Shown here in pieces: positions 3,047 through 28,156 of a DNA stretch of 64,000 bases; the stretch's first letter is position 1; each line of letters begins with the position of its first letter. This DNA is from Scenedesmus sp. PABB004 (Eukaryota). The notes beneath the pieces are model-generated. The model had not been told where the DNA came from and ran no database searches. It saw only the letters and a program-made list of their open reading frames with translations. The position numbers and the translations under genes are program-made. The stretch is from NCBI GenBank assembly GCA_014905635.1, contig JABVCE010000021.1:248001-312000 (forward strand), read 5' to 3'.

Positions 3047-4443
3047 ATGGCCCGCACCACCGCCGTTTGGCTGCTGCTGGCGCTGGCGCTGTCCCTCGCG
3101 GCCGGCGACGAGGCGCCCGGCGGCGCGGCGCCGGGCGGCGCGGCGGCGGGCGGCGCGGCCGTGGCCGGCGCGTACCTTGGCAACGAGGAGCCCACCATCT
3201 GGACGCGCCCCGCCGTGCTGCTCCTGGGCGACAGCCTCACCGAGCTGGGGCTGGACCCCACGGGCGGCTGGGGCGTGAGGCTCGCGCACGCTTATGCGCG
3301 CAAGGTGCGGCGGACGCCCGCCTCCTCTCGCGCGCTCAAGCGCGCCGGCGGCCGCCCGCCCGGCGCGGCGCCGCCGCTGCGGCCCCACGCCGCGGCCGCC
3401 GCGGCGCGCAGGCTGACGTCATCAACCGCGGCTTTGGCGGCTACACCACGCCCACGCTCTCGCTCTCGCTGCCCGAGGTGCTCGCGTCGACGCGGGGGCA
3501 GAAGGTGATGCTCGCCACGCTCTGGCTCGGCGCCAACGACGCCAGCCGCCCCGACCGCGGCAAGTGAGTGGCCGGCCCTGCCCAGCGCCCGCGCGCGCGC
3601 GCGCGCGACCCGGTGGCGGCCCGGCGCCGCGCCACGCCACGCGGCCGCGCCGACCGCGCCGCCGCCGCCGCCCGCTGCGCGCGCAGCGCCGCCGCGGCGG
3701 TGCCGGTGGTCAGCTACGCGGCGCTCCTGGCAAACATGGTGCGGCAGCTGCAGGCCGCGGGCGTGGCCAACGTCGTGCTCATCACGCCCCCGCCGGTGAA
3801 CGAGGCCGCGCCCAAGGCGCTCGGCCCCGGCGAGGTGCGGCGGCGCAGCGGGGCGCGCGGCGCGCCACACCGCGCGCGCACACGCCGCCGTGTGCCGCCG
3901 GCGCCTCACCGCCTCACCGCCGCCGCCGCCGCCGCCGCAGACGCTGCCCGCGCGTACGCGCGACTACACGGCGCAGTACGCCGCCGCGGCGCGCGGCGTC
4001 GCGGCGCAGATGCGCGTGCCGCTGCTCGACGTCGCGGCGCTGTTCGAGGCGACGCCGGGCTGGCAGACGGCGCTGCTCGGCGCCGACGGCCTCCACCTCA
4101 GCCCCGCGGGGCAGAGCCTGGTCTTCTCGTCGCTCATGGGTCTCATCGAGAAGCAGCTGCCGGACGTGCGGTGCGTTCCACGCGGCGCCGCGCTGTGGGC
4201 GACTGCGCTGTCGGCTGCCGCGCTGCGGGCTGCAGCACTGGGTTGTCGCGCGCGCTGACGCCCGAATCTGCCGCGCGGCGCAGGCCGACCGCGCTGCCGT
4301 GGCACCACCCGACGTGGTGGTTCGTGGACTACCAGAACGCGGCCGCGCAGTGGGGCGCCGAGGAGGCCGCATACCGCGCCGCCACGGGCGCGGGCGCGGG
4401 CGCGGGCGGCCGCGCGGTGGCGGCCGCCGCCGGCCGCGACTGA
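3047..4443 (+). CDS. SGNH/GDSL hydrolase, IAH1-like, copy 3 (spliced)
   Basis: Signal peptide MARTTAVWLLLALALSLAAG, then VLLLGDSLTE, DVINRGFGGY, LWLGANDA, DGLHLS; intron positions largely shared with copy 2. Confidence 0.9.
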
Positions 4444-8630: not shown

Positions 8631-8675
8631 GCGAGGTTGCGCGCAGGTTACGCGAGGCTGTCGACCGGAACGCGG
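8631..8675. repeat. 45-bp perfect inverted repeat, left arm (partner 19008-19052)
   Basis: gcgaggttgcgcgcaggttacgcgaggctgtcgaccggaacgcgg is the exact reverse complement of 19008-19052. Confidence 0.95.
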
Positions 8676-8681
8676 TCACTG

Positions 8682-9101
8682 GGGGCAACGCGGCGCGCGA
8701 AGCGGCGCGTGATGCGGCGGCGCGGCGCGGAGCGCGCTGGCGCGCGCCGGCAGCTGCGGCGCGCGGCCGGCTGGCCCGCGCCGCGCGGTCGCGCCGCCCG
8801 TGGGCACCTGCTTGCTGAGGTCCAGCGCCAGCTTGCGCGCCAGCTCCGCGAGGTGGCTGTCCTTCTCCACCCGCCCCACCAGCAGCACGATCACCGACGC
8901 GCAGCACTCGGCGTCTGCGCGGCGCGGCGGGTGAGCGCGCGCCGGCGCCGCGCCGGCCCTGCTCGCTGCCGCTCGCCGCCGCGCCAGCCCGCGCCGCCCG
9001 CCCCGCGCCCCGCTCGCCGCCGCCGCGCGGCGCACCCTTTTCGCTGGCCTTTGCGAACACCAGGTCCAGGTGGCCGGCCATGCGCTTGATGAGCTCATCC
9101 C
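8682..9101 (-). pseudogene. Captured 420-bp fragment of eIF3m (partial intron-exon-intron-partial exon)
   Basis: Identical by eye to 27249-27668 of the intact eIF3m gene, introns included (DELIKRMAGHLDLVFAKASEK / AECCASVIVLLVGRVEKDSHLAELARKLALDLSKQ). Confidence 0.93.
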
Positions 9102-9569
9102 GCCGAGGCCCCCGCCGTGTGGCTGTAGCGGTCGGTTGCGCCGTCGCCCGGCGGAGCTGCAGCAGGTGCGCGGCGCGCAGGAAGAGCGGCAGCATCGTGG
9201 CAGCCACAACGGAGAGGCGGGGGAGTGGCGGGCGAGGCGGTGGCGCGCCAGCGGTCGGGCGCGCGGCCGGCCGTCACGGCGGCGCAGCGCGCACAACAAT
9301 CGAGGCAACGTCGGATCGCGTGTGCAGTAGCTCGTGCCCCCTCGCTGCCTGCGACGGGTGCGGGATCGAGCGGGCGCGTTGCCGACGCCGGCGCCGCCCG
9401 CCGGCGACGTCGCCGGGTGCCGCTGCCGGCCGCCCACGGCTGCGTGTGCGACCTCTGCGGCGACGACGTGCACCCCGACGCAGAGGTGCGGCCGGGGAGC
9501 GCCGCGGCGGCGGTGGCGCCGGGCACTGCCAATCCCCCCAGCTGCTGGCCCCCCAGCTGCGCCGCGCAC

Positions 9570-9672
9570 CCGCGTTGACGAGCGCGTCGCCGCTCCACGC
9601 CGCGATGTCGCCCTGCGACAGCACGATCAGCGCCTCGCCGTGCTTGTACCACCTCGCGTTGGAGGAGGGCAT
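9570..9672 (-). pseudogene. Isolated first exon of a macro-domain (ADP-ribose binding/hydrolase) gene
   Basis: MPSSNARWYKHGEALIVLSQGDIAAWSGDALVNA followed by a GTGCGC donor; matches the macro-domain GDI...DAxVNA motif; no downstream exons found. Confidence 0.7.
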
Positions 9673-9700
9673 CCTGGCGCCGGGTCCGCGCCCGGGCGCG

Positions 9701-9778
9701 CTGCGGTGGCGGGCGGGCGCGGCTGGAGCGGCGCAGCAGCTGCGGTGGCGGGCGGGCGCGGCTGGAGCGGCGCAGCAG
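9701..9778 (+). repeat. 39-bp tandem duplication
   Basis: ctgcggtggcgggcgggcgcggctggagcggcgcagcag x2. Confidence 0.9.
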
Positions 9779-10312
9779 CGGCGCCGGCGCCCGCCCGCCG
9801 CCGCGCGCCGCCGACGCCGCCGCGCACGCTGTGGCGGTGGCGGTGCGCGACGGGGATGCCCAGGAGGAGGAAAGCAGCGGCGGCAGCCGGGCAACGTCGT
9901 GAGGGGCGGGGCCAACCGCCCTGAACCGCCTGACCGCCCGTGCTCTCGGTGCCCGAACCGCCAGCCCATCTGGCACCAGACCGTGCACGGTGAGAGGCAC
10001 ACGCGGCGGCCACCCGCGCCGGGCGAGAGCCTCCCGCGATGCAAGCTCGTCGATCGCGCGCCAGCACGCGGCGCGCGCGCTGCCGGCAGCCCCGGCCGGC
10101 GCGCGCCGCGATGGTCAGCCTGTGAGGCGCGTGTGTGGTGCGTGCGTCGCGGCGCGTCGGCCATCGCGCGCTCCGCGTCGGGCCCGTTCCGGAAGATTCA
10201 TGCCGCCCGCCCCGCCCCGCCGCGCCCCGCCCCGCCCCGCCCCGCCGCGCCCCGCCCGGCCCTCCTCCTCCCGACAAGCGCCAGGCCCCTGAGGTGGGGC
10301 GCGCTGGGCGCC

Positions 10313-10922
10313 ATGGAGCCGGAGCCGCCGCCGCCGATCGGCGGCGGGCAGCAGGAGGCGCAGCAGCGAGCGCGCGCCGGCGCGCCGGCTCAGGGCGCGC
10401 CCGCCGGCCTTCTCGCGCTGCCGGTGCTGAACTGGGGCGCGCCGCAGCCGGCGGCGCCGGCGCAGCCGCGCCCGCCGCCGGCGGGCGCCGGCTGGCGCCG
10501 CGCGTATCGCGGGCAGGAGGAGGACTGGCTGCAGCCGCCGCCCGCCGCCGCAGCAGCAGCAGCAGCAGCAGCAGCACCAGCACCAGCACCAGCAGCAGCG
10601 CGCGGGCGCGTCGGCGCCGCGGCAGCCGCCCGCTGCCGGCGGCTTCGCGTACCAGGAGGTGGTGCGCGGGCCGGCGCGCCAGGACCTGCCGGGGCACGAC
10701 TGTGCTCAGTGCCGCGACTTCTACGGCGCCCTCTCCACCTGGGGCGCGCCGGCGCCGGGCACCATGATGCTGCTCCCGTGCACGCACGCGCTGGCCCCGG
10801 CCGCGCTGCAGGCCGCGTCGCGGCACCGCGCCAAGCACGCGCCTCCCGAGACCCCGCCGGGGTTTTGGGACATCGGGTTCACGCCCGATGAGCAGGCGGC
10901 GGTGTTTACGCTTGGCGACCCT

Positions 10923-10958
<36 letters not shown>

Positions 10959-12016
10959 GGCGTGCCCGCCCCGTTCGGCGGGCGCAGCCGCAGCCGCAGC
11001 CCGCCGCAGCCGCCGCCGCAGCAGGGGCAGCAACCCAGCGACGCGTCGCCGCCGTGGCGCACCGTGGCGCGCGCGCGCCGCCCCCCCGGCGGCGGCGGCG
11101 GCGGCGGCGGCGGCGCGCTGCCCGCCGCGCGCGGGCCGGGCCCTGGCCGCGCAGCCGCGCTCGGCGGTGGCGGCAGGGGCAGCCCCGGGCCCAGCAGCAG
11201 CAGCGGGAGCGGCAGCGGCAGCGTCAGCGGGAGCGGCTGGCGCGGCGGCAGCCCGGCGCCGCGGCCGGACGACGCGCCGGTGCCGGCGCCGGCGCCGCCG
11301 CCGCCCGTGGCGCCGCAGCAGCGGCAGCCGCCGGCAGCCGCGCCGCGCGGCGCGCCGGCGCCGGCGCCGCCGCCGCCCGTGCCGCCGCCGCTGCAGCGGC
11401 AGCCGCCGGCGGCCGCGCCTGCCCCGTGCGGCGGGCGCAGCCGCAGCCGCAGCCCGCCGCAGCCGCCGCAGCCGCCGCCGCAGCAGGGGCGGCAGCCCAG
11501 CGACGCGGCGGCCGAGTGGCGCACCGTGGCGCGCGAGCGCCGCCCCCCGGCGGCGGCGCGGCGGCGGCGGCGGCGGCGGCGGCGCGCTGCCCGCCGCGCG
11601 CGGGCCGGGCCCTGGCCGCGCAGCCGCGCTCGGCGGTGGCGGCAGGGGCAGCCCCGGGCCCAGCAGCAGCAGCGGGAGCGGCAGCGGCAGCGTCAGCGGG
11701 AGCGGCTGGCGCGGCGGCAGCCCGGCGCCGCGGCCGGACGACGCGCCGGTGCCGGCGCCGGCGCCGCCGCCGCCCGTGGCGCCGCAGCAGCGGCAGCCGC
11801 CGGCAGCCGCGCCGCGCGGCGCGCCGGCGCCGGCGCCGCCGCCGCCCGTGCCGCCGCCGCTGCAGCGGCAGCCGCCGGCGGCCGCGCCTGCCCCGTGCGG
11901 CGGGCGCAGCCGCAGGCGCAGCCCGCCGCAGCCGCCGCAGCCGCCGCCGCAGCAGGGGCGGCAGCCCAGCGACGCGGCGGCCGAGTGGCGCACCGTGGCG
12001 CGCGAGCGCCGCCCCC

Positions 12017-12050
<34 letters not shown>

Positions 12051-15000
12051 GCTGCCCGCCGCGCGCGGGCCGGGCCCTGGCCGCGCAGCCGCGCTCGGCG
12101 GTGGCGGCAGGGGCAGCCCCGGGCCCAGCAGCAGCAGCAGCGGCAGCGGCAGCGTCAGCGGGAGCGGCTGGGGCGGCGGCAGCCCGGCGCTGCGGCTGGA
12201 CGACGCGCCGGTGCCGGCGCCGGCGCCGCCGCCGCCCGTGGCGCCACAGCAGCGGCAGCCGCCGGCGGCCGCGCCGCGCGGCGCGCCGGCGCCGGCGCCG
12301 CCGCCGCCCGTGGCGCCGCAGCAGCGGCAGCCGCCGGCGGCCGCGCCGCGCGGCGCGCCGGCGCCGGCGCCGCCGCCGCCCGTGGCGCCGCAGCAGCGGC
12401 AGCCGCCGGCGGCCGCGCCGCGCGGCGCGCCGGCGCGGGCGCCGCCGAAGCTCATGGCGCCGGCGGGCACGTGCACCGGCGCGCAGCTCGCGCTGCTGAA
12501 GCGCGAGCTGGAGGACAAGGGGTACGCGCTCGTGCACGGCCGCGCCAACGGCCTGTGCGGGTTCTCCCTCATTGCGATTGCCGTGCTGCGCATGCTGGAG
12601 GCGGCGGAGCTGCAGGAGCCGACCCACGACCTGCGCAGTTTCGAACCCGACGTGCTGGACATGTTGGACGAGCAGGCGGGCGAGCTGCGGTCGCGGACGG
12701 TGGAGCTCATCCGCGAGCTGGGCCTGAGCGACCAGCTGCACCCGAGCGGCGTGCCCTGGCGCGATGTGCTCGGCGTGGCCGGCGCGGACGCCGTGGAGGA
12801 GCTGGCGCGAGACCTGGAGGCCGGGGGCTACCCCAGCGAGGCTGAGCTGCGGGCGCTGTGCATGCGCCTGGCAGACTTGGTCTTCCTGACCGACGTCTAC
12901 AGCCCTGACACGCTCCTCATCGCCCTGCAGGAGCAGGGCGACGCGTTCCAGGCGAGCGAGGGCAACCGGCTCGTGGCGCTCGCGCTGCCGGCCGCCGCGG
13001 CGCCGGAGTTTGCGCCCGTGCTCGGGGCGCAAAACCCGCTGCCGCTCAACCACTGGGCGGCGGTGGTGCCGGCACGCAGGCCGCCGCCGCGCGGCGCGCC
13101 GGCGGAGCTGCAGCAGGTGCGCGAGCCGCCGCGCGGCGCGCCGGCGCAGCAGCGGCTGCAGGAGGCGGCGCCGCGCGCCGCGGAGCTCGCCACGGACAGC
13201 AGCGACGAGGAGGGCGGCCCGGCGGCGGGCCAGCCGCGGCAGCCGCTGCAGCCGCTGCAGCCGCTGCAGCCGCTGCAGCCGCAGCAGCTCGGGCGCAAGG
13301 AGCGCCGCGGCAAGGGCAACGGCGCCGCGGCGCCGCTGGGCACCAGCAACAGCGACAGCAGCAGCAGCAGCAGCCGCCGCCGCCGCCGCGCCGCGACCGC
13401 CGCCGCCATCGACGCGGCGTGGGAGAAGCCGGTGGAGCGCCGCGCGGAGCTCGACGCGTCCAAGGCGCGCGCCGAGGCGGCCGGGCCGTCCGACGAGGAC
13501 GTGCGGCGCTCCAAGCAGCGCGCGAGCTACGACGCCAAGCACGCGCGCCGCGGCGGCGGCGCCAGCGGCGGCGGCCAGAGCGGCCAGAGCGGCGCGCGCA
13601 GTGGCAGCGTCAGCGGCGGCGGCACGAGCCGCGCGCGCAGCGACAGCGCCGGCGGCAGCGCCGGCAGCAGCACCGGCGGCGGCACGAGCGGCGCGCGCAG
13701 CGGCGGGGGCACCCCGGGCCCCCCGCCCGCGCGCGGCATCGACCCCGCCGAGCGCGCGGCGCAGCCCGTGAGCGGCGCCGACTGGGAGGCGCTGCGCCGC
13801 CACGCGCAGGCCCGCGGCGAGGCCGCCCGCGCGGCGGCGATGGCGGCGGTGCTCTCGGCGCCCGCCGCCAGCGTCGGCTGGTCCGCCGGCAGCGCCGCGG
13901 CCAGCAGCGATGAGGAGGAGGGCGGCCCGGCGGCGAAGCGCGCGCGCGGCGCCGACGCGGCGCAGCGCCGCAGCCGCGGCCGCGGCCGCGCGCGCTCGCG
14001 CGGCAGCGCCAAGGCCGCGACGCGCGGCGGCCGCACGCCCTCGCGCGGCGGCGGCCGCGCGCGCTCGCGCGGCGGCGCGGCGGCGGCGCCGCGCGGCCGC
14101 CGCAAGCGCTCACGCGGCGCCGACGAGGCGTCGGGGCGTGCCTCGCCCGCGCGCGGTGCAGCGGCGGCCGAGGCGGGCGACAAGGCAGGGCGGCAGCAGC
14201 AGCAGGCGCTGCCGCGCCACTTCACCAAGCGCAGCGAGAAACGGACCGAGCAGGCCAAAAAGGCAGCGGCCGGCTCTGGCATGCGTGAGTGTGCCCGCCG
14301 CGCGGCGCGCTGCCGGGCCGCCGGGCCGCTCTCTCGGCACCCAGCGCCGCCGCCGCCCCGCGCCCTGCCCGCGCCCCCCTCACCTGCCCTCGCCCGCCCG
14401 CCCGCCCGCCCGCCTCAGGCGTGCGCGTCTGCGCGCTGCGCGGCGCCGTGCGCAAGCCAGAGGTGGTCCCCTACCTCGAGGCGCTCGTGTGCGCCTACAG
14501 CCGGCTGGGCATCCTCGGCCGCGACGCGCACCACGTGGCGCTCGTGTATGGGGCGAGGTGCGCGCGCGCGCGGGTGGGGCGCGCCCGCGCGCTTTGCGCC
14601 CCCTCCTCCGCGCCGCCCGCCGAGTCGCGCCGCCCGCCCGCCCGCCCGCCCGCTGCGCAGCCGGCTGTACGGGCTGGACACGCGCCAGCCGCCGCCGCAG
14701 CCGGCGGCGCAGGAGCAGGGCCCGCAGCAGCAGCAGCCCCCGCCCGCAGCGCCGCCAGCCCAGCAGCCGGCGCCGCCGCCGCCCGCGTGCGCCTGCTACC
14801 TGCAGGCCGCGTGCGGCGGCGCGCCGCTCGTGTACGACCTGATGAACTTTTTTAGCCAGGGCAACTGGCGGCGACACGGCACCGGCCTGTCCAGCGACCT
14901 GCGCCACGCGCTGGAGCAGGCCTGCGGCGTCAACGAGCTGCAGCGCGTGCCCCTGCCGGCCTGGGTGACCGGAACCCTGCACCACCACCTGCTCAACCCT

Positions 15001-16705
15001 CTCGCGGAGCTGTACAACACCAACATGCAGCTCCACCTCGCTGACGGCCAGCGCCTGGAGAAGGCGCTCGACGCCGCCGCCCTGCAGGCGTGGTTTGCCG
15101 CGGGCTGCGCCGGCACGCCCAGCCGCGCCGCGCGCGACTGCCTCATCGCCGGCGGCGCGGCGCTGCTGTACAGCGCGTCGCCGCTGCTCTGGGAGCGCCA
15201 GGGCGTGCTGCAGCCGGGCGAGGGCGTGGTGCCCGCGGCGGCGGGCGACGGCCAGGACGCCGGCCGGCTGCGGCTGGCCATGGCGATGATGCGCGACATG
15301 CTCGCGCAGATGCGCCTGCACCTGGAGCAGCCCTACCCGGCGGCGGCGGACGGCGAGGCGCGCGCGCCCGCGGCCGGCGCGGCGCGCACGCGCCAGGCGG
15401 CAGGGGCGCAGGCGACGCCCAGCCTGCAGCGCTGGGAGTCGGACGAGGCCGCCGGCAAGCACGGCCGCGTGCTCGACTGGGCGCGGAGCGGCATGCCGCG
15501 CGCGCCGGACGCGGGCGCGCAGGCAGGGGGCGCGCCGCTCGTGCCGCAGCCGCCGGAGCCGCTGGCGCACGGCGCGGGCGCGGCGGCGCGGCAGCAGCAC
15601 GACGCGGCCTACGACGCCTGGCGCGCGGCGCTGGCCCGGCAGCTCGAGGGCCTGGCGTACCGGGAGGGCGACGCCGACGCCATGGCGCGCCGCGTCGCGC
15701 GCGACTTTGTCGTCATGCTCGGCCAGCAGCACATGTTTGCTGCCTGCGCGCCGCGGCTCGCGGACTCGCTGGCAGCCCAGCAGGGCGCGGCGGCGCGGCC
15801 GGCGCTGGAGGCGATGCTGCGCCGCGCCGCGTCGCTCGGGGCGGCCCCGGAGCCGGCGTCGGCCGGCGCGCTCGCGGCGGCCGTCGAGTCGCTGGCAGAG
15901 GCGCTGGACGGCAGCAGCGGGGGCAGCGGCAGCGGCAGCAGCAGCAGCAGCCGCAGCCGCGGCCAGCGTCCGCCGGCGCCCCCCAAGCTGCTGGACGCCA
16001 GCGCCCAGGAGCCGCGCCTGCGCGAGCTGCAGCGGGCGCGCGAGCTGGGCAAGCTCGAGGCGGCGGTGCAGCGCCTGCGCGCCGCCGTGGATGCCAGCGA
16101 GGCGGCCGTGCGTCTGCGCAAGGAACCCCTCAAGGGCCTGCAGCGGGAGGTCGCCGGCGCTACGGTCCCTGATCGCCACGCCCGCAACCGGCTGCGCCGC
16201 CTGCAGCGCAAGGACGCGCACGCGGCGGCGCTCCGGCGCCGGCTGGCCGTAGAGGAGGCGCGGCTGCTCCGCGCCCGGGGGCAAGGCGCCGCGCCGGGCG
16301 CGGCGCCGGGCCAGGGCCGGGCGCGGCGCTGCCGGCCGCGGCCGCGGAGCGGCTGCGGCTGGCGCTGGCCGCGCTGACCGCCGCCGGCGACGCGACGGTG
16401 GGGGCCGACCTCGCAGCCGTGGAGGCGGAGTGGCAGGCTGCCATGGCGCAGCACCACGAGCGCGACGCGGCGCTCGTGCAGCACCAGCGGGCCCTCGCGC
16501 GACCGCACGGCGCGGCGGTGGCGCCCGACGCGGACGCGGCCCGCCGCGCGGCGGACGCCGCGCGCGCCGCGCGCGACCAGGGCGCGCGGCTGCTGGGCGA
16601 CTGCGGCGCCCGACTGGCGGCCGCGCGCGGCCACCTGGCGGCCGCGCGCGGCCACCTGGCCGCCGCAGCGGCCGCGCAGGGTCGCGCTGCGCCGGCGCCG
16701 CCGGC

Positions 16706-16756
<51 letters not shown>

Positions 16757-18569
16757 GCGCGCGCCGCGCACGCCCGAGGAGGCGGCGGCGGCTGTCGCGG
16801 CGCTGCGTCGCGATGTCTCGGCCGGCTGGCGCCACGCGGTGTGCGCGACGCTCGAGGCGGTGCTGGCTGCGGCGACCGCCGCCGGCGCGGCGCCGGCGCC
16901 GCCCGGCGGCCGCAGCGGCGGCGCGCAGCCGCCGCAGCGCGCCGGCGGCGCGGGGCAGCACCCCGACGCGCTCGTCGCGGTCACGGGCGCGTGCAAGGTG
17001 CTGCGCGGCCTGCGCTCGCGGCACGCCGCGCGCGTGGCGCTGCCCAAGCGGCGCGCCTTCACGCTGGCGCCGGTGCCCAAGTACGGCACCCAGCACCTGC
17101 ACCTGTCCACCTCGGGCATGCAGGCGCTGGACGCAGCGCTGCGCGCGCGCCAGGCCAGGGCGCCCGCGGGGGGCCAGCCGGCAGGCCAGCCGCCGCCGCC
17201 GCCGCCGCCGCCACCGCCGACCCAAGAGGGCGGGGGCTACGATCCCGTTTGGGATGCATATTTTGATTTTGGCCGGCGCCCCGGGCGCGCGCGCGGCGTG
17301 CTGCACGCCAACACGCGCTTCGCGGGCTCTGTGACGTTTGATCTGGCGGCGCTGCACGTGCGCGTGCGCGTTGAGGGCGCCGCCGACCCCGCCCCGCGCC
17401 GCGGCCAGCAGTCGCGCGCCGCCAAGGCGGCGCAGCGCGCGGCAGAGCACCGCGCGGGCGTGGAGGCAGCGCGGCGGCTGCTCTGCGACGCGCTGGCGCC
17501 GCACGGCGTGGCCGACGAGGCGGCGCTCGACGCGCTGCCGCTCGACCCGTGCGAGCTGCGCGGCGTGGAGGGCCTGCCGCCGGGGCACGCGCTGCGCGGC
17601 GCGGCCGCGGCCGTGCACGCGGGCGTGCGCATAGTTGGAATCGACCCGGGCCGGGCGCGCATGATATGCGCCGCGACTTGGCGGCAGGGCCCGGGCTGCA
17701 CGCGCGTCGCGCACCGCCGCATCGCGCAGCGGCGCTGCCCCAACGCGCCGCGCCACCGCGGCGACCACGGCCGCCGCTACGAGGCGGAGCGCATCATCCG
17801 AATAAAGACCGCCGCGCACCGCGACTCGCGCGGGATCGAGCGGCACAGCCTGTGGCAGCAGGGGCGGCCGGGGCGGCCGGGGCGGTACGACCGCCGCCCG
17901 CCCGGCGGCGGCGACTGCGTGCATGCCTGCCTGAACCGCGTGCCTGCCTACTCGGGCACGAGCGTCGCCGCCGCCGGGGCGTGGCGCAACGGCCGGGTGC
18001 ATCATGTGTTGGACAATGCATTCGCATATAGCTTGCTTGCGTGCCGTGCAGAGTGTGCGTGGCGGCTGCGGAAGCACGGGCTGAAGCAGCGCGCGCTGCA
18101 TGCGGCGATTCAGTTGACTGCATACGGCCGGGTCTTTGTGCGCGGGCGCGTCCGGCAGCACGCGCGCCTGCCCGCCGACCTGCCCGCGGTGGTGCTGGGC
18201 ATCGGGGACGCCAGCCTGGGCATGGGGGGCTGCATCTCGGGGCCGGGGCCGCCGCGGCAGGCGCTGCTGGCGCTGCTGCGCACTTATTATGCGCGCCGGC
18301 GCGTCGCCGCGGTGCTCATGGACGAGCACCGCACGAGCGTCACCTGCTCGGTCTGCGGGGCGCGCATGGAGAAGCTGCGGGGGATTTACGGTCTGCTACA
18401 GTGCCCCGGGTGCACGGTCGTCGCGCCGCGCGACGACAACGCGGCGCGCAACATCTGCGCGCTCACGCTGCACGAGTTGCTGCGCGGCGGCCGCGGCACG
18501 GCGGGCGGCGCGCGCCTCGCCGGCGCGTTCCGGCAGGCGGCCGCCGCCGCGGTGGACCCCCCGGCGTGA
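10313..18569 (+). CDS. Giant Fanzor1 (TnpB-like RNA-guided nuclease) fusion: CtIP/Sae2-C, Pro-rich repeats, OTU-like, Fanzor REC/WED/RuvC/ZnF (~2,670 aa after indel correction)
   Basis: gccATGg at 10313. Introns 14285-14418 and 14558-14660 (GT-AG, phase-consistent). Indels at ~10541, ~11545-11560 and ~16317 are needed to join the frames. Fanzor1-like motifs LAELYNTNMQLHL, FTLAPVP, VWDAYFDF, FAGSVTFD; RuvC-I IVGIDPG, VVLGIGD, MDEHRTSVTCSVCG...CPGC...RDDNAARNI. Confidence 0.7.
10644..10880 (+). other. CtIP/Sae2/Com1 C-terminal (SAE2) domain
   Basis: FAYQEVVRGPARQDLPGHDCAQCRDFY...ASRHRAKHAPPETPPGFWDIGF carries the YxEVVR, CxxC, RHR and TPxGFW signature of the CtIP C-terminus. Confidence 0.9.
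10977..12437 (+). repeat. Three ~455-540 bp coding tandem repeats with nested 72-bp (PAPAPPPPVAPQQRQPPAAAPRGA) units
   Basis: Units start at ~10977, ~11430 and ~11899 (GGRSRSRSPPQ...WRTVAR...GRGSPGPSSSS...RPDDAPVPAP); near-identical DNA. Confidence 0.9.
12520..13070 (+). other. OTU-like cysteine protease domain
   Basis: GYALVHGRANGLCGFSLIA (Cys codon 12556) ...ELRSRTVELI... NHWAAVVP (His codon 13051) resembles the OTU xGDGNCxFxA ... HY/W motifs. Confidence 0.55.
17625..18456 (+). other. Fanzor/TnpB RuvC nuclease plus C4 zinc finger, catalytic residues intact
   Basis: Asp at 17643 (GIDPG), Glu at 18324 (DEHRTS, the ZnF-proximal position typical of Fanzor1), CxxC...CxxC, Asp at 18432 (RDDNAARNI). 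Confidence 0.93.
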
Positions 18570-18990
18570 GCGGCGTGTGCGGTGCGCTGCGCTCTCCGTC
18601 CTGGGCAGGACGTTAAAAGGCCTCTTGCTGTTGTGTTGTGTTGCCAGGTTAGGTCAGGCGTGTGCGCGTGCGTTTCTCGCCTTGTCACCCGTTCCGGGTG
18701 GGGGGGACCCCTCGCGGGGCACCGACCTGCGGGCCGGTCCCAAACCGTCATGCCTCGCGCCGCTGTGGCCTGTTTCAGGCGGCCGGCGATCAGAGGATGC
18801 CCATGGTCGGTGTTGGCGGCGGCGGCGCGCGCGCGCGGCGGTGGCAGCGCCGCGCACGCGCGCCGCGCGCCCGCGGCGCCGGGGCGCCCCCCGGGGCGCC
18901 CCGGCAGCCCCCATCCCCCCAGCCGCCGGTGTTGAGACCACCGGCCGGCGCTCCCACGGCGGTAGCGAGGCCGGGGAGCACGCCCAGGCG
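18459..18990 (+). ncRNA. Putative omegaRNA scaffold / element right end (5' boundary uncertain)
   Basis: Lies over and downstream of the Fanzor stop, is retained almost unchanged in the non-autonomous copy, and has terminal hairpins at 18925-18945 and 18947-18984. TnpB/Fanzor omegaRNAs are known to derive from the right end. Confidence 0.6.
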
Positions 18991-19007
18991 CGGTCACTCT
19001 GCATCGC

Positions 19008-19052
19008 CCGCGTTCCGGTCGACAGCCTCGCGTAACCTGCGCGCAACCTCGC
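19008..19052. repeat. 45-bp perfect inverted repeat, right arm (partner 8631-8675)
   Basis: ccgcgttccggtcgacagcctcgcgtaacctgcgcgcaacctcgc. Confidence 0.95.
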
Positions 19053-19227
19053 CCGCGCTCCCCGCCCCGCACTCCCCCGGTCCGCCGCGCCGGTCTCACC
19101 GACTCGTCTCTCCGCCCAGCGCACGCAGCCGCGCCCGCCGCGCCGCCCGCGCCCGCCAGCCCGCGCGCGAGCTGCTCGCGGGGCGTTGCCGCTCGTGGGG
19201 CGGCCGCAGCTCGTCGAATTGCTCGCC

Positions 19228-20973
19228 ATGGGCAACCCTGAGGTCTCCGACGTCTCGATTGCGGTCGGCGACCCGCCGGGCGGCCTCGGCGATGCCGAGG
19301 CGGCGGCCGCCGTCAAGCCGGCCGCCGCGGCGCGGCCGGGCCTCTGCAAGCGCGTGCTGCGCTACGCCCTGGAGCAGTGGTGAGTGGGCGTTCCCCCCAG
19401 CTCGGCTGCGGGCGCCTCGGCCGCCTCGGCGCGCCCAGCGGCCGCCGCGCCGCGCAGCGCCGCCCGCCTGGCGCCAGCCGCGCCCGGTGCACGCCCGACC
19501 GCCCGCCCGCCCGACCGCCCGCCGCCGCGCCAGGTTCATCCTGGGCCTGGGCGTCGTCATCGGCTTTGCCGCGGCGGTGCCGCGCCTCGGCGCGACGGGC
19601 GGGTGGCTGCGCGCCGAGTACAGCATCAAGCTGCCGGCGATCGTGCTCATCTTCGTAATCAGCGGCCTTGGCCTCAAGACCAAGGCCCTGCTCGGCGCGG
19701 CGGGCGACGTGCGCCTGCACGCGCTCGTGCAGGGCCTCTCGCTCGGCGCGCTGCCCGCGCTCGGCGCCGCCGTCGCGGCGGGGCTGCGGTCGGCGGGGTT
19801 CAACCCGCCGCTGTGCGACGGGCTCGTGATCATGGCGTCCATGCCGACCACGGTGTCGACCAACGTCGTCTACACCGCGCGCGCGGCGGGCAACGAGCCC
19901 GCCGCGCTCGTCAACGCGGTGCTCGGCAACATCCTAGGCATCTTCATCACCCCCCTCTGGCTGCAGCACTTCCTGGACGTCTCCGGCGCCGCGCCCTACG
20001 CGGCGGTGCTGGTGGAGCTGAGCTACACCATCATCGCCCCGCTCCTCGTCGGCCAGGCGCTGCAGTACGGCGCGCCGCGCGCGGTGCGGCGCGGCGGCGG
20101 CTGGGCGTGGCGCGGCGGCGGCGGCGGCGGCGGCGCGCAGCCTGCGCGCAGCCTGCGCGCAGCGGCGGCGGCTGAGCGCGGCACGGCGCGCAGCCTGCGC
20201 GCCCGCCCATGCTCGCCCGCACGCGCTCGCCCGCGCGCGCCCGCCCACGCTCGCCCGCCCCGCTCTCGCAGGTCGCGTGGATCAAGGCGCACATCAACAC
20301 GGCCAACGTCTCGTCCGCCTGCATCCTCGCGCTCGTGTGGCTCACGTTCTGCAACACCTTTTCCAACGGCGCCGCGCGCAAGGTCCCCGGCGGCGACGTC
20401 GCCGCGATGGTCGCGCTCAACGTCGCGCTCTTCGCCGCCTTTGCGGCGCTCTCCTTCCTCGTCGCGTGGCCGCCGCCGCCGCTGCGCTGGGTGCGGCGCC
20501 TGCTGCGCGTGCGCCGCCCCGACGCGGTCGCGGTCGTCATCTGCGGGTCGACCAAGACCGTCGCGCTGGGTGTGCCGCTCATCAACGTCATGTACGGCAA
20601 CGTCCCCACCGCGGGGCTGCTCGCGATGCCGCTCATCATCTACCACGCCCTCCAGGTCCTCCTCGGCGGCCTGCTCATCGCGCCGCTGCGCGCTTGGTGC
20701 CTCGCGGCGCCGCCGCCAGCTGCAGAGGAGGGGGAGCACGCCGGCGCGGCGCGCGGCGCCGCGAGCGCGTCGTCGCGGCGCTGGAGCCTCATGGCGCTGC
20801 TGCTGCCGGGCGGGCGCAGCAGCCAAGCGGACCTGGGGCCGCGCCCAGGGCCGCGCCCAGGGCACCACCAGGGGCACCAGGAGCAGCAGCACCAGGAGCA
20901 GCAGCCGCAGCACCACCAGGAGCAGCAGCCGCAGCACCACCACCAAGAGCAGCCGGCCGCGCTGCCGCGCTGA
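19228..20973 (+). CDS. Sodium/bile-acid cotransporter 7-like (SLC10A7/SBF-like) membrane protein, 3 exons
   Basis: EQWFILGLGVVI, IVLIFVISGLGLKT, MASMPTTVSTNVVYT, NAVLGNILGIFITP, VICGSTKTVALGVPLI, PLIIYHALQ. Confidence 0.9.
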
Positions 20974-21212
20974 GTGCGACCACGCGGCTGGGCGGTGGGG
21001 CGGTGTAATTGCAGCCCAGGACGCGGCCGCCGCCGGCGGCTGGGGGGCGCGGGCGAGCCCCCGCGCGCGCGAGCTGCGCGCCGCGACCGCCGGCGGCGGC
21101 GCGGCGCGCGCAGGGACGGGCGCGGGCCGGCGCGCGTCACACGTGCGACGTCGGAGGCCGGCGATCGGGGGCGCGCCCGCCACGTTCCGCGCGAGGCGAG
21201 CAAGTTAGGTGC

Positions 21213-21975
21213 TGCCGCGGCGCGGCGCGGAGCGCGCTGGCGCGCGCCGGCAGCTGCGGCGCGCGGCCGGCTGGCCCGCGCCGCGCGGTCGCGCCGCCCG
21301 TGGGCACCTGCTTGCTGAGGTCCAGCGCCAGCTTGCGCGCCAGCTCCGCGAGGTGGCTGTCCTTCTCCACCCGCCCCACCAGCAGCACGATCACCGACGC
21401 GCAGCACTCGGCGTCTGCGCGGCGCGGCGGGTGAGCGCGCGCCGGCGCTGACCCTGCACGAGTTGCTGCCCGGCGGCCGCGGCACGGCCGGCGGCGCGCG
21501 CCTCGCCGGCGCGTTCCGGCAGGCGGCCGCCGCCGCGGTGGACCCCCCGGCGTGAGCGGCGTGTGCGGTGCGCTGCGCTCTCCGTCCTGGGCAGGACGTT
21601 AAAAGGCCTCTTGCTGTTGTGTTGTGTTGCCAGGTTAGGTCAGGCGTGTGCGCGTGCGTTTCTCGCCTTGTCACCCGTTCCGGGTGGGGGGACCCCTCGC
21701 GGGGCACCGACCTGCGGGCCGGTCCCAAACCGTCATGCCTCGCGCCGCTGTGGCCTGTTTCAGGCGGCCGGCGATCAGAGGATGCCCATGGTCGGTGTTG
21801 GCGGCGGCGGCGCGCGCGCGCGGCGGTGGCAGCGCCGCGCACGCGCGCCGCGCGCCCGCGGCGCCGGGGCGCCCCCCGGGGCGCCCCGGCAGCCCCCATC
21901 CCCCCAGCCGCCGGTGTTGAGACCACCGGCCGGCGCTCCCACGGCGGTAGCGAGGCCGGGGAGCACGCCCAGGCG
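21213..21975 (+). mobile_element. Non-autonomous internally deleted derivative of the Fanzor element (763 bp)
   Basis: 21213-21448 matches 8713-8948 (eIF3m-derived left end), joined through a gcgc microhomology to 21445-21975, which matches 18459-18990. Flanked by direct repeat agcaagttaggtgc (21199-21212 and 21976-21989). Confidence 0.92.
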
Positions 21976-22174
21976 AGCAAGTTAGGTGCGCTCCTTGCTC
22001 GCCCCCAGGGCCCTCCGCTGCCGCCCCCCAGACCCGAGAGTCCGACGCGCCCCTCGCCGCAGTCGACTGCCGCCCGCGCGCCCCCAAAGCACTCACGGCG
22101 AACGCTCGCGCGCTGCGGTGCCCGTGAGTCCATGGCCGCGTGACCTGCGCGTCGCACCGATCAGAGACCGCGCC

Positions 22175-24197
22175 ATGCAGCTGCGCGCCGGCCTGACCGG
22201 CGCGCGGGCGGGCGCGGGCGGGCGGGCGCCATGCCGCGCGCTGCCCGCGGCAGCCCACGCTTCGGGGAGCGGCGCCGGCGTCGCCCCCAGTCTACGTCGG
22301 CGAGGAGCGGCCGGTGCGCGCGCGCCGGGGGCGTGGGGGCGCCGGGAGGGCCGGGCGCGGCAGCGCAGCGCCAAATTTGTTTGCCCTCGCGCCCGCGCAC
22401 GCGCTGCGCGGCCGCCAGGGGGCCCAGGCGCGTGCGCGCCGCCCGCCACCGCGCCGGCGGCGAGTCCTCACGCCCCCGGCGCGCGCCGCGCAGGCGCTGG
22501 TGATGCTGCGCTGCCGGCAGACGCACCGCGGCGCGCGCGGAGCGTCGCAGCCCGCGGCTACGGCGGCTACGAGCAGAACACCTTCTCGCCGAGCTCCCAG
22601 CCGCCGCAATTCTCCAGCCCCGCCGGCAGCAGGCGCGCGGCGCGCGGCGGCGCCAGGCTGCCGCTGCTGCCGCGCGCGCCGCGCCGCGCGCGGGGCCGGC
22701 GCCGCGCGTGCGCACGCGCCCCCGCGCCGAGCACCGCCCCGCCGCCGCCTTGCCGCCGCTGCCGCGCGCGCAGGCCGCAGAGCCCGCAGCAGCAGACGGG
22801 CACGGCGCTCGCGAGCCAGGAGGGCGGCACCGCGCTCAAGGCCAAGGAGCAGCCCAAGACGGTGCAGGTGCGCTTCTGGCTGAAGTTCCACGTCGACTAC
22901 GGCCAGACGATCCGCATCATCGGCGGCCACGAAGCCATGGGTGCGCGGCGAGGCGGGCCGCAGCAGCAGCAGCCGCGCGCGCGCGCGCGCGCGCGCGAGT
23001 CGCGGCCCTTGCGCCGCGCGCGCGCCTCACCGCACGCGCGCCGACGCGCGGCGGCAGGCGCGTGGAACCTCGCCAAGGCGCCGTTCCTGCGCTGGAGCGA
23101 GGGCGACCTGTGGAACGTGGCGCTCGAGGTCGCCGCCGGCGGCGTGTACGAGTACAAGTGCGCCCCGCGCCCCCGCCGCGCCCGCGCCATCCAGGGCCCG
23201 GGGTTGTTGTCGCGCCAGGGGGCCGCCGCCCCGCGTGCCGCCCCGCCCGCCCACGCCGCGCCGCCGCCGCCGCCGCGCCCCCAGGTACGTCGTCGTCGAG
23301 GGCGACGGCGTGACCGCGGCGAGCTGGCAGCGCGGCGCGAACAACGTGCTCGCGCTGCAGCTCAGCGACGAGGAGGTGGAGGTCTACGACAACTGGTGAC
23401 CAGGGGCCGGCGCGGGCCAGCAGCGCGGGCCAGCAGCAGGGGCCAGCAGCAGGGGCCAGCAGGGGACGGCGGCGGGGTGGCAGCAGCAGGACGCGCCGAG
23501 CCGCTGCCGCGGGCGCCGCCGCCGCGGGCGCCGCCTGGCGGAGGCCCGCCCGCGCCCACTCACCCGCTTCCGCGCGCGCTCACTCGCGCGCTCCCGCTCG
23601 CAGGAAAAACGCGCCCGGCGCGCTCGTGCTGGTGGACGGGACGGAGATCACGCGCGAGCGCAAGCTGCTCGCGTGGGCGGGCGACATGACGCTGCAGCGC
23701 ACGGAGCTGCGGCGCACGCGCATGGAGCTGGCGCAGGCGCGCGAGGAGATCCGCGTGCTGCGCGCCGAGCTCAGCGTGCTGCGCATGGAGGTGTCGGAGG
23801 CCAACATCGCGCGCGCGGCGGCCGAGGCGCGGCAGCTCGAGCTCGAGCGCGCCAACAGCTCTCTGCGGCTCGAGGTCACCGCGAGCCAGGCGAGCGCGCG
23901 CAGCACGATGGAGGAGGCGGTGCGGCTGCTGAGTGAGTGGCGCGCGCGCGCGCGCGCGGGGCGCCGCGGGGCGGGCGGCGGCGGCCGGGGCGCGCGGGCG
24001 GCGGCCAAAGCGGGCGGCGGCCGGGGCGGGCGGTCGGCGGCGCGGCCGCGTCTGCGCCTGCGCGCTCACCGCCCCCCGCCCCCCTCTTGCGCCGCCAGAC
24101 AACATGGATGACGATGGCGGTGACGGCCCCGACGGCGGCGGCGGCAGCAGCGGCAGCGCGTACGCTGCCGCGCCGTCCAGCAGCGGCAGCCACGGCA

Positions 24198-25502: not shown

Positions 25503-28156
25503 TCAGTGCACCGCCTGCGGCGCGCGCGGCGCGCCTCGGCTGCCCTTGGCCGCCAGCGTCTCGCCCGCCGCCGCGAGCGCGTCGCGCAGCGCGCCGAGCT
25601 GCTGCCCGAGGCCCGCCCACTCGTTGGAGGTGAAGGTGCGGTGGTGCACGCGCGACACGGTCACGCGCGACGCGACCTGGTCGATGCGCGCGTCGATGAG
25701 CTTGGCGCCGATCGCACGCACCAGCCACGGCTGGACCTGGCGGCCGCGGCGGGCGCGGGCGGGCGGGTCGGCAGGCGCGGCGGGCGCGGCGGGCGCGGCG
25801 GGCGGCGCGGGCGGGCGGCCGCGGCGCGGCGCCGTGCGGCGAGGCGCGCGCACCTGCTCCGCGGGGATGTCCAGCGCCGCCTGCACCTCGGCGAGGGGCA
25901 CGGCGGCGCCGTTGGCGCGGCCGCCGAGCACGAGCAGGGCGAGCATGCGCGTCTTGTCGGTCGCCGCCTCGGCCGTCACGCCCACCGCCTCCAGCACCGC
26001 GGGCGTCGCCGCGGCCTTGAAGCCTGCGCGGCAGGGCAGGGCGCGGGGCAAGCGCGTCGCTGCGGCCGCGCGAGCGCAGCCGCGGCGGCGGCGGCGGCGG
26101 GCGGGTGGGCGCGCGCCCCTTCCCGCGCGCCGCCGCCCCGCGCACCCGGCAGGTCGCCGCGCAGCATCGTGTCCAGCAGCTGCAGCAGCGGCGCGGTCGC
26201 AGCATCGCGGCCGAGCTGCGTGACCGCGGGCAGCTCCCAAAAGTCGCACTGGAAGGCGTCGGGGCTGCGCACAAACGCCTTGACCGCCTCCGCGGCAAAC
26301 GGCTTCACCTGCAAGGGCGGGCGGGCGCGCGCGGCGCGCGCAGAGCGCGTGAGCGCGCCGCGCCGCGCGGGCGAGCGCGCCGGCGGCGGGCGGGCGGGCG
26401 GGCGGGCGGGCGGGCGGGCGGGCGGGCGGGCGGGCACGCCGCGGCCGCACCTTGGCGAGGTCGGCGCCGTCCGTCGCCAGCGCCAGCGCGGCGCCCAGCA
26501 GGCGCAGGTACTCCTTGCCTGCCGCGCGGTCGCCCACGACCTGTGGCGCGGGCGCAGGGCGCAGGGTGCGGGCGCGCGGGGGCGCGGGCGCGTGGGCGGG
26601 CGGGCAGCGCGGGAGCCGCGCGGCACACGCGCGGCGATGACGGCGCAAGACGCGCAGCGCGCCGCCGCGCGCGGCGACAGGGCGGGGCGGGGCCTCGGGC
26701 GTTTGCTCTCATCACTGGCGGGCTCAAACAATGTAGATAAGGATGTTTGGCTGTTGGATCGTCACCGGCCGGCGCAACAGCACGGCAAGGCACGCACGCA
26801 AGCACAGCAAGCACGGGCCGCGCCGCGGCGGGCGCTACGCAGCGCACGGCGCACCTTCATGAGGGACGCCAGCTGGAGGTGCAGCTCGATGGCCATGCTG
26901 GGCTTCAGCCCCCACACGCGCCGCCACTCGTCGGCCTTGCCCTGCGCAGGCGGCGGCGCTGGCACGTCGGCGGCGCGGCGACGCGCAGGGGCGCGCCACC
27001 AGCAGCAGCAGCAGCAGCAGCAGCGGCAGCAGCAGCAGCAGCGGCGGCAGCAGCGGCGGCGGCGGGCGGCGCGCCTTGACGACGGGCGCGAGCAGCGCGG
27101 CGAGGCTCTTGCTCTGCTTGGCAAACTCCAGCGCCTGCAGCAGCACCACGTAGCGCGCCGGCGCGGTGCCGACGTTGCTGTACAGCCCCAGCAGCGCGTT
27201 GAGCTTCACCTCGCCCATCACCTCGGGCTGCGCGGCGCAGTGCGGCGCGGGGCAACGCGGCGCGCGAAGCGGCGCGTGATGCGGCGGCGCGGCGCGGAGC
27301 GCGCTGGCGCGCGCCGGCAGCTGCGGCGCGCGGCCGGCTGGCCCGCGCCGCGCGGTCGCGCCGCCCGTGGGCACCTGCTTGCTGAGGTCCAGCGCCAGCT
27401 TGCGCGCCAGCTCCGCGAGGTGGCTGTCCTTCTCCACCCGCCCCACCAGCAGCACGATCACCGACGCGCAGCACTCGGCGTCTGCGCGGCGCGGCGGGTG
27501 AGCGCGCGCCGGCGCCGCGCCGGCCCTGCTCGCTGCCGCTCGCCGCCGCGCCAGCCCGCGCCGCCCGCCCCGCGCCCCGCTCGCCGCCGCCGCGCGGCGC
27601 ACCCTTTTCGCTGGCCTTTGCGAACACCAGGTCCAGGTGGCCGGCCATGCGCTTGATGAGCTCATCCCAGCGGCCCTCGCCCGCGAGGGCGGTGCACTCA
27701 GCCACGAACTTGGAGCCCGCCGTGTCTGCGAGCGCCGTCTTGCCGCCCTGCGGCGCGCGCGCGGAGCAGCAGCGGCGGCGCCCGCCGGCGCGTCGGGCGC
27801 AGCGCGGCGCGCGCCGGCGCCGGGCGCGGCGGGGCAGGCTGCCGCGCGGCCCCGGCCGGGCCGCGGCGCCTGGCGGGCCCGGGGCGCGCCGCTGCTGCTG
27901 CGGCAGCCGGCGGCCAATCATCACGCGCCGCCCCGGCGCCAGGGGCGGGCCGCCCGCGGCCGGGCCGGGGGCACTGGCCACCACGGCGCCCGGGGGCGCG
28001 TCGATCGTGCGGCCGCGGGCCTCCAGCGCGGGCGGGGCGGTTGCGCGGCGCGCCCGCCATTCAGCGCACCGCGCCCTCGTCCAGCAGGCCCCCGATGTGC
28101 CGCGCGACCGCGATGTGGCTGTCCTCCTCCACCGTCTCAACCAGGTGGATCGTCAT
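25503..28156 (-). CDS. EIF3M: Eukaryotic translation initiation factor 3 subunit M (PCI domain), spliced
   Basis: MTIHLVETVEED...; KTRMLALLVLG; VQPWLVRAIGAKLIDARIDQVASRVTVSRVHHRTFTSNEWAGL is a PCI C-terminus typical of eIF3m. Confidence 0.85.

What the first reader, a model, noticed from the sequence alone, without database searches (positions are those of the whole stretch)
21213..21995. Minimal non-autonomous copy that is effectively a stand-alone omegaRNA cassette with a new guide
Seen: the deletion removes everything up to just after the last catalytic motif (RDDNAARNIC). It keeps ~110 bp of CDS tail plus the full ~420-bp right end. Known: TnpB/Fanzor guides are the ~15-20 nt just beyond the right end. 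Inference: this copy would express guide agcaagttaggtgcgctcct, versus cggtcactctgcatcgcccg for copy 1, and could program the Fanzor in trans. The retained segment bounds both the scaffold and the cis needs for mobility.
Basis: partly seen in the sequence, partly recalled or inferred. Interest (0 to 1): 0.7.

Follow-up and report, generated by a model that had tools for sequence, protein, structure and literature searches.

The report
Truncated Fanzor copy, duplicated target
This is a shortened copy of an algal jumping gene whose RNA-guided DNA cutter has been deleted, and the short duplication around it equals the start of its would-be guide RNA, which may be the scar of a failed cut-and-copy repair.

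Summary
21445-21975 is a 99% copy of the last 111 bp of a Fanzor gene plus its 421-bp right end; the break falls just after RDDNAARNIC.

(1) The left 236 bp is not a transposon end: it is host DNA from an eIF3m-like gene at 27280-27515. (2) The copy is flanked by a 19-bp direct repeat, so 14 nt of the 'new guide' also sit at its own left junction, the guide's only near match in the window. Copy 1 has a 10-bp repeat of the same kind.

This anatomy matches Chlamydomonas CRe-1/2/3 Fanzor1 elements (Bao and Jurka 2013). Stand-alone guide cassettes are also known (ghost loci, Saito 2023). Expression across the right end and use in trans are unshown, and the breakpoint does not bound the scaffold.

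My best mechanism (0.45, inferred): Fanzor cut the empty sister site, and one-sided repair re-copied the element incompletely, leaving a duplication equal to the guide's start. My searches did not find this stated in print. No earlier scan note covers this element.

The parts
21194..21212 (+). Left target-site repeat of copy 2: AGGCG (candidate TAM, also equal to the element's last 5 nt) plus 14 nt equal to guide positions 1-14
21213..21448 (+). Captured host DNA (intron-exon-intron piece of an eIF3m-like gene, antisense); same as 8713-8948 and 27280-27515 but for one base at 21216
21445..21555 (+). Fanzor CDS tail (36 codons plus stop) starting right after RDDNAARNIC; first 4 nt are the GCGC microhomology; 4 substitutions versus copy 1
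21556..21975 (+). Right end, candidate omegaRNA scaffold; folds modestly better than shuffles (z=-2.56, 1 of 100 as good); multi-variant in related strains from 21518 on
21907..21964 (+). Two predicted subterminal hairpins (21907-21934, 21935-21964), the last 11 nt before the end
   Evidence: prediction only
21976..21995 (+). 3' flank, candidate guide 2; 21976-21989 is the right target-site repeat; lies 200 bp upstream of the next host ATG (22175)
8681..18990 (+). Copy 1, the 10.3-kb parent-type element: captured host DNA, long ORF, Fanzor, right end; flanked by a 10-bp repeat (8671-8680 / 18989-18998)
16398..18569 (+). Fanzor core ORF of copy 1: DPG at 17643, DE..T at 18321, C4 zinc finger, RD at 18429
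   Evidence: (PF07282 E=1e-9)
18991..19010 (+). 3' flank of copy 1, candidate guide 1; positions 1-8 repeated at its left junction
27249..27668 (-). Host donor of the captured 5' DNA (eIF3m-like gene; reading frame and introns continue on both sides); 420/420 identical to 8682-9101

Best explanation
Shown: copy 2 is a 3'-intact, internally deleted, 5'-shortened copy of a Fanzor transposon, with captured host DNA at its 5' side and a variable-length target duplication. This is the anatomy of the Chlamydomonas CRe-1/2/3 elements. Inferred mechanism (abortive cut-and-copy): (1) A longer copy inserts, without duplication, just after a motif ending in CG, probably through a rolling-circle transposase supplied from elsewhere. 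(2) RNA read from its right end into the flank guides Fanzor to the empty site on the sister chromatid or homologue, which is cut about 9-21 nt past the motif. (3) Only the right broken end invades the filled template. It copies backwards through the guide sequence and the right end, jumps 9.5 kb at a 4-nt microhomology, and stops short of the element's 5' end. (4) It is end-joined to the left broken end, which still carries guide positions 1-14. The duplication is thus the start of the guide, and the retained length records where synthesis jumped, not what the RNA needs. The copy may still yield an omegaRNA (about 0.4), whose target would be the empty allele of this same site.
For: Both copies (2 of 2) have a repeat that begins at the element's 3' boundary: 14 nt (+5 shared) and 8 nt (+2 shared). 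In Bao and Jurka's 15 chosen example loci, 9 carry a duplication (10, 9, 9, 12, 12, 12, 19, 11, 19 nt by my reading). All 9 start right after the T-rich tetranucleotide and right after the right end; the 5 loci with an intact 5' end carry none; 1 shows only 3 nt. Duplications were seen in 1 of 200 copies of the Fanzor-less Helitron-1N1. Measured Fanzor cuts lie 9-21 nt past the TAM (Saito 2023), the same range. Cut-and-copy at the sister was proposed for Helitron Fanzors. The captured DNA comes from 6 kb away with introns, as in repair-mediated capture of nearby DNA (abstract). Copy 1 keeps two GT-AG introns whose lengths (134, 103) match its frame switches, so copying was at DNA level.
Against: There are only two copies, no genome and no empty allele or TSD-free parent seen. 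The motif before the repeat agrees only as RRRCG (GGAACG versus GAGGCG), unlike the AT-rich Fanzor1 TAMs reported. A 14-nt match behind AGGCG should be re-cut if the guide were live (SpuFz1 plateau at 13 nt), yet the copy persists. CRe-1 Fanzor showed no cleavage in vitro. Copy 1's long ORF has three frame switches without clean introns. No RepHel motif was found in the window. CRe duplications of 44-443 bp need an extra step. Both copies start within 32 bp of each other in the captured DNA, which the model explains only if that DNA was already near the parent's 5' end.
Confidence: 0.45

Rival explanations
1. One-ended rolling-circle transposition. A Helitron2 transposase in trans starts at the right end and stops at variable points; a second nick not directed by this locus's guide (host repair, or Fanzor acting as a helper) creates the duplication during insertion. 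The guide match is then a by-product, since any duplication starting at the 3' boundary equals the flank.
For: This is Bao and Jurka's reading of CRe-1/2/3, and Craig 2023 tentatively invoked combined HUH and Fanzor cleavage. Replitron-1 also makes variable duplications without carrying Fanzor. It needs only one event, and it explains local hopping from copy 1, 2.2 kb away.
Against: It does not explain why full-length CRe copies lack duplications or why Fanzor-less Helitron-1N1 nearly never has them. No RepHel or clear ATIR was found here.
Confidence: 0.3
2. Retrotransposition. A LINE reverse transcriptase copied the Fanzor 3' RNA by target-primed reverse transcription, annealing through AGGCG, then switched template.
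For: Variable duplication, 5' truncation and 3' microhomology are typical of this process (established knowledge). An earlier scan note found LINE tails behind a similar claim elsewhere.
Against: There is no poly(A) or simple-repeat tail. Copy 1, with the same kind of repeat, retains introns. The internal junction has no GT-AG. No YADD-like motif was found in the window. The 5' piece contains host intron sequence.
Confidence: 0.1
3. Generic break repair. A random break was patched with DNA from copy 1 using short homologies, with no role for Fanzor or a transposase.
For: The donors are all within about 13 kb; there are microhomologies at all three junctions and substitutions clustered near two of them; repair-mediated duplication is documented (abstract).
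Against: The right junction coincides with the element's end in both copies, and the right end is multi-variant in related strains, as expected of a mobile family.
Confidence: 0.1

Closest known systems
CRe-1, CRe-2, CRe-3 Fanzor1 elements of Chlamydomonas reinhardtii (non-autonomous Helitron2; Bao and Jurka 2013, PMC3627910)
   Same: 3'-intact, 5'-truncated, internally deleted copies; duplications of about 7-19 bp that start at the right end; captured non-Fanzor DNA at the 5' side; a right end resembling the target motif; similar RuvC motifs by eye. Their locus 12 (650 bp, 19-bp duplication, break at the last catalytic motif) is almost the same object; locus 6 keeps only 188 bp.
   Different: The motif before the duplication ends in CG, not TTTT. 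No Helitron2 left end or ATIR was identified. The parent carries a much longer ORF with a SAE2/CtIP motif and a possible OTU-like domain.
Ghost Spu-1 loci of Spizellomyces punctatus (Saito 2023, PMC10432273)
   Same: A protein-less copy of similar size that keeps the omegaRNA end with a different flank; trans use proposed, and ghost scaffolds worked with SpuFz1 in human cells.
   Different: Ghost loci keep both 30-nt inverted repeats. This copy has no terminal inverted repeats, its left part is host DNA, and its flank is duplicated at the left junction.
CrFNuc-1 fRNA (Jiang 2023, PMC10530073)
   Same: A small RNA from the 3' UTR of a green-algal Helitron2 Fanzor, with 20 further genomic copies of the RNA; forms an RNP with its protein.
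   Different: No cleavage was detected for that enzyme. Sequence similarity of the RNAs was not tested here.
TnpB restorative homing in IS200/IS605 and IS607 (review PMC13565253)
   Same: The guide equals the 3' flank, so the target is the empty site.
   Different: Complete homing leaves no duplication. The claim here is that the duplication marks an incomplete event.

Membership tests
Fanzor/TnpB | D...TS..C4 zinc finger...RD motif | tested here: met
   (PF07282 E=1e-9); the fold search ranks Cas12f and Fanzor chains first, though none reached E<=0.001 and the model was weak, pLDDT 49.6
Fanzor/TnpB | DPG and shifted glutamate (Ealt) active-site signature | tested here: met
   IDPG at 17640 and MDEHRT at 18318; signature as named
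Fanzor1 | TDG motif in the WED domain | tested here: inconclusive
   The aligned position reads TFDL here; 4 of the 10 other rows (P0003, P0006, P0016, P0023) have TDG
Fanzor1 | Phylogenetic placement in the Fanzor1 clade | not tested
   No tree with reference Fanzors; likeness to CRe-2/3 is by eye only
Fanzor/TnpB | omegaRNA binding and RNA-guided cleavage | not testable with these tools
   needs RNP assays
CRe-1/2/3-type elements | 3'-intact, 5'-variable copies with internal deletion and captured 5' DNA | tested here: met
CRe-1/2/3-type elements | Variable duplication starting at the right end | tested here: met
   2 of 2 copies
CRe-1/2/3-type elements | Fixed motif just before the left duplication | tested here: inconclusive
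   n=2, agreement only as RRRCG; not TTTT
Helitron2 | Asymmetric terminal inverted repeats and 5' hairpin | tested here: inconclusive
   Best inverted match between the last 130 nt and 8681-10400, among those holding an A or T, was 10 nt; the true left end may be missing from both copies
Helitron2 | 3' subterminal hairpin | tested here: met
   predicted hairpin 21935-21964, 11 nt from the end
Helitron2 | RepHel partner sharing the ends | not testable with these tools
   No strict RepHel motif in the window; no genome held. Membership of Helitron2 is therefore not claimed
Ghost loci (Spu-1 type) | Both terminal inverted repeats kept, ORF lost | tested here: not met
   no inverted repeat of 18 nt or more at copy 2; left part is host DNA
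LINE/SINE retrocopies | 3' poly(A) or simple-repeat tail | tested here: not met
   the end runs directly into the duplication

The most novel reading that the evidence does not exclude
The variable duplications of green-algal Fanzor elements are fossil records of Fanzor cutting in its native host. Each equals the start of that locus's own guide, begins at the TAM and ends at or before the cut. Truncated copies such as this one are failed homing events, so TAM and cut position can be read from genomes alone. Here that predicts a GC-rich TAM (RRRCG) for a giant Fanzor1 (roughly 2,700 aa if the frame breaks are errors) that carries its own SAE2/CtIP motif to steer the break toward resection and copying.
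Probability: 0.35. Interest if true: 0.72.

Novelty: new member of a known kind. Interest (0 to 1): 0.45.

Why it matters
As a stand-alone guide cassette it is ordinary: ghost loci and extra algal fRNA copies are published. Its value is in the junctions. The cause of these duplications was called unknown in 2023, and I found no direct demonstration of Fanzor homing in a eukaryote in the papers I read. If duplication equals guide start, existing Chlamydomonas and related assemblies become a test set for Fanzor activity in vivo. A CG-ending TAM would also widen the targeting range of Fanzor1 enzymes, whose reported TAMs are AT-rich.

Tried and rejected
No genome is held, so copy number, other guides and genome-wide targets are untested.

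DNA scans: exact right-end patterns found 0 matches in metagenome, viral and prokaryote collections. Protein-guided scans gave 4 viral and 16 metagenome loci at 23-36% identity, not examined further. Rfam: 0 matches.

Sequencing runs: all 10 held a share of 0.14 or less, and 4 of 10 were laid (32 piece rows shown, 623 hidden). None of the 8 joints listed skips copy 2, and no listed piece bridges 21975, but holes prove nothing. The RNA run has 5 contigs at 21597-21836 and a spliced host-gene contig. This is a weak hint that the family's end is transcribed in a related strain, not this copy. The 20 right-end variants tested showed no compensatory pairs against the predicted fold and are unphased.

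OTU-like domain: no OTU hit in Pfam, no PDB hit and no homologue, and the single-sequence model was unusable (pLDDT 37.9). Only an Atlas lead remains (0.91, OTU on 34% of one cluster). No SAE2-Fanzor fusion homologue was found (1 hit of 2,318 candidates). The literature search for it listed only 20 of 3,874 papers, so absence is weak. The Atlas gave nothing for 14722-15900.

Rejected: the left 236 bp as a transposon end (the host frame continues on both sides), and the 45-bp inverted repeat as the element's TIR (it lies outside the direct repeat and is absent at copy 2).

Slips: the copy-1 empty site folded carried one extra base, and one 150-nt training exon was one base out of frame.

Full report
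Setting. The window is about 80% GC with intron-containing genes typical of a green alga. No genome is held. A self-comparison gives two long matches for the finding: 21445-21975 to 18459-18990 (527/532), and 21209-21448 to both 8709-8948 and 27276-27515. Copy 1 spans 8681-18990. Copy 2 lies 2.2 kb downstream, between an SBF-like transporter gene and the next host ATG at 22175.

The observation. RDDNAARNIC is at 18429-18458 and the shared block begins at 18459. The CDS tail is 111 bp and the right end 421 bp (420 in copy 2). The flanks are as quoted. The tail has four substitutions in its first 45 bp, all C/G swaps, three of them synonymous. They come either from error-prone synthesis near the junction or from another family member as template. 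A public Scenedesmus protein (KAF8064625.1) carries the last ~117 residues at 97% identity, so further family members exist.

The protein. It has DPG, the shifted glutamate, a C4 finger and RD. Among 1.84 billion representatives, 32 scored E<=0.001, the best 36% identical. Several have the TDG motif of Fanzor1, where this protein reads TFDL. By eye the C-terminal motifs resemble CRe-2/3; no tree was built. Codon scores suggest one long ORF from about 10315 to 18569, with two GT-AG introns (134 and 103 nt, matching the frame switches) and three further switches near 10530, 11550 and 16290 in GC-rich runs. Those could be assembly errors or real damage, so the local Fanzor may not be intact.

First correction: the left part. 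21213-21448 is a piece of a minus-strand host gene whose exons and introns continue on both sides of the shared block. The gene's C-terminal exons match eIF3m weakly (E=0.003). Copy 1 begins with 420 bp of the same gene, 100% identical. The capture is recent and local, and no transposon left end was identified. Copy 2 is best read as a copy-1-type element that lost 32 bp at the 5' end and 9.5 kb inside at a GCGC microhomology.

Second correction: the duplication. Copy 2 is flanked by a 19-bp direct repeat: five bases shared with the element's end plus the first 14 nt of the proposed guide. Copy 1 has 2 plus 8 nt. An anchored match of 14 nt or more arises in about 6e-5 of random draws. Within the window, guide 2 has no other site with fewer than 3 mismatches in 15 nt than its own left junction. 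Because both left junctions end in CG, the boundary and guide start could be 2 nt earlier. The upstream motif agrees only as RRRCG.

Relatives. Four public runs hold right-end pieces with variants (12 of the 32 piece rows listed), at higher summed depth than neighbouring host genes in run X2, which suggests a multi-copy family. The RNA run covers 21597-21836, but no listed contig crosses the end. The right end folds modestly better than shuffles (z=-2.56) and has no Rfam match.

What is known. Bao and Jurka 2013 (PMC3627910; read parts 1-5 of 7, supplements 1 and 8 whole, passages of 3; figures and the alignment file not seen) describe this anatomy for CRe-1/2/3 and call it one-ended transposition. 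In their 15 example loci I count nine duplications of 9-19 nt, all starting right after the T-rich motif and right after the end, and none on the five copies with intact 5' ends. Locus 12 breaks at the last catalytic motif; locus 6 keeps 188 bp. Saito 2023 (PMC10432273; passages, sections 7 and 11) reports 134 ghost loci, working ghost scaffolds, cuts 9-21 nt past the TAM, a 13-nt guide plateau for SpuFz1, and proposes cutting at the sister chromosome. Jiang 2023 (PMC10530073; passages) found the CRe-1 RNA, 20 more copies, RNP formation and no cleavage. Craig 2023 (PMC10288648; passages, section 9) calls the cause of the duplications unknown and tentatively invokes combined HUH and Fanzor cleavage. 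Also seen: passages of PMC10711439 and PMC4067079, passages and section 20 of PMC13565253, and the abstract of PMC2671141.

Mechanism. The simplest account of all CRe features and of both copies here is incomplete cut-and-copy. Fanzor, guided by the flank, cuts the empty sister site. The right end copies the element backwards and stops early, and the left end keeps the first guide bases. One-sided invasion and microhomology joining are recalled from general repair biology, not tested. The model predicts no duplication when copying is complete and few in elements lacking the RNA end, both as published. Five searches did not show this explanation in print; the library lacks most subscription papers and preprint supplements. 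Against it: n=2, no empty allele, a weak motif, a 14-nt self-match that should be re-cut, no cleavage shown for the CRe-1 enzyme, and rare much longer duplications. Any duplication that starts at the boundary equals the flank, so the guide match alone cannot separate this from one-ended transposition (0.3). Retrotransposition (0.1) and generic repair (0.1) fit worse.

Verdict. The feature is real and is a new member of a known kind. It works like a CRe-1/2/3 truncated copy; membership of Helitron2 is not established. The cassette idea is plausible but published, and unshown here. The junction reading makes an open question testable, hence interest 0.45.

Noticed in passing
window 10659-11000 (+): A SAE2/CtIP C-terminal motif (PF08573, E=2.6e-10) lies inside copy 1, on the Fanzor strand near the start of the long ORF. 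It is either a captured host exon or a resection-promoting part of the Fanzor protein. No fused homologue was found.
   Followed up: partly
window 12466-13104 (+): Possible OTU-like protease domain in the same ORF (Atlas lead only). Helentrons are reported to carry OTU genes.
   Followed up: partly
window 8631-8675 and 19008-19052: A perfect 45-bp inverted repeat brackets copy 1, the only non-simple one with arms of 25 bp or more in the window. The empty site would be a hairpin with a 14-nt loop. The inner arm starts at position 18 of guide 1, near where Fanzors cut, so it may be a fold-back repair product rather than older DNA.
   Followed up: partly
window 9100-10300: The 5' part of copy 1 looks like a patchwork of further host pieces on the minus strand, including a macro-domain-like exon near 9560-9680 (recognised by eye; no Pfam hit). 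A 25-bp stretch at 9148-9172 repeats 13099-13123.
   Followed up: partly
window 18990-19228 and 21975-22175: Both copies end 200-240 bp upstream of a host start codon, in the gene's orientation. The public paralogue P0035 is likewise annotated as fused to a downstream gene. The guides would match host promoter DNA.
   Followed up: no
window 21216, 21450, 21453, 21470, 21489: All five internal substitutions of copy 2 are C/G swaps within 45 bp of a junction; the following 486 bp have none.
   Followed up: partly
window 11072-12430: Three near-identical repeats of about 465 bp encode the proline/glycine-rich linker of the long ORF.
   Followed up: no
window 1803-2316 and 3584-4123: A 75%-identical pair, probably duplicated host gene parts.
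   Followed up: no
L001 and L002: Two distant TnpB/Fanzor-like matches (23% identity) on one 281-kb viral contig.
   Followed up: no
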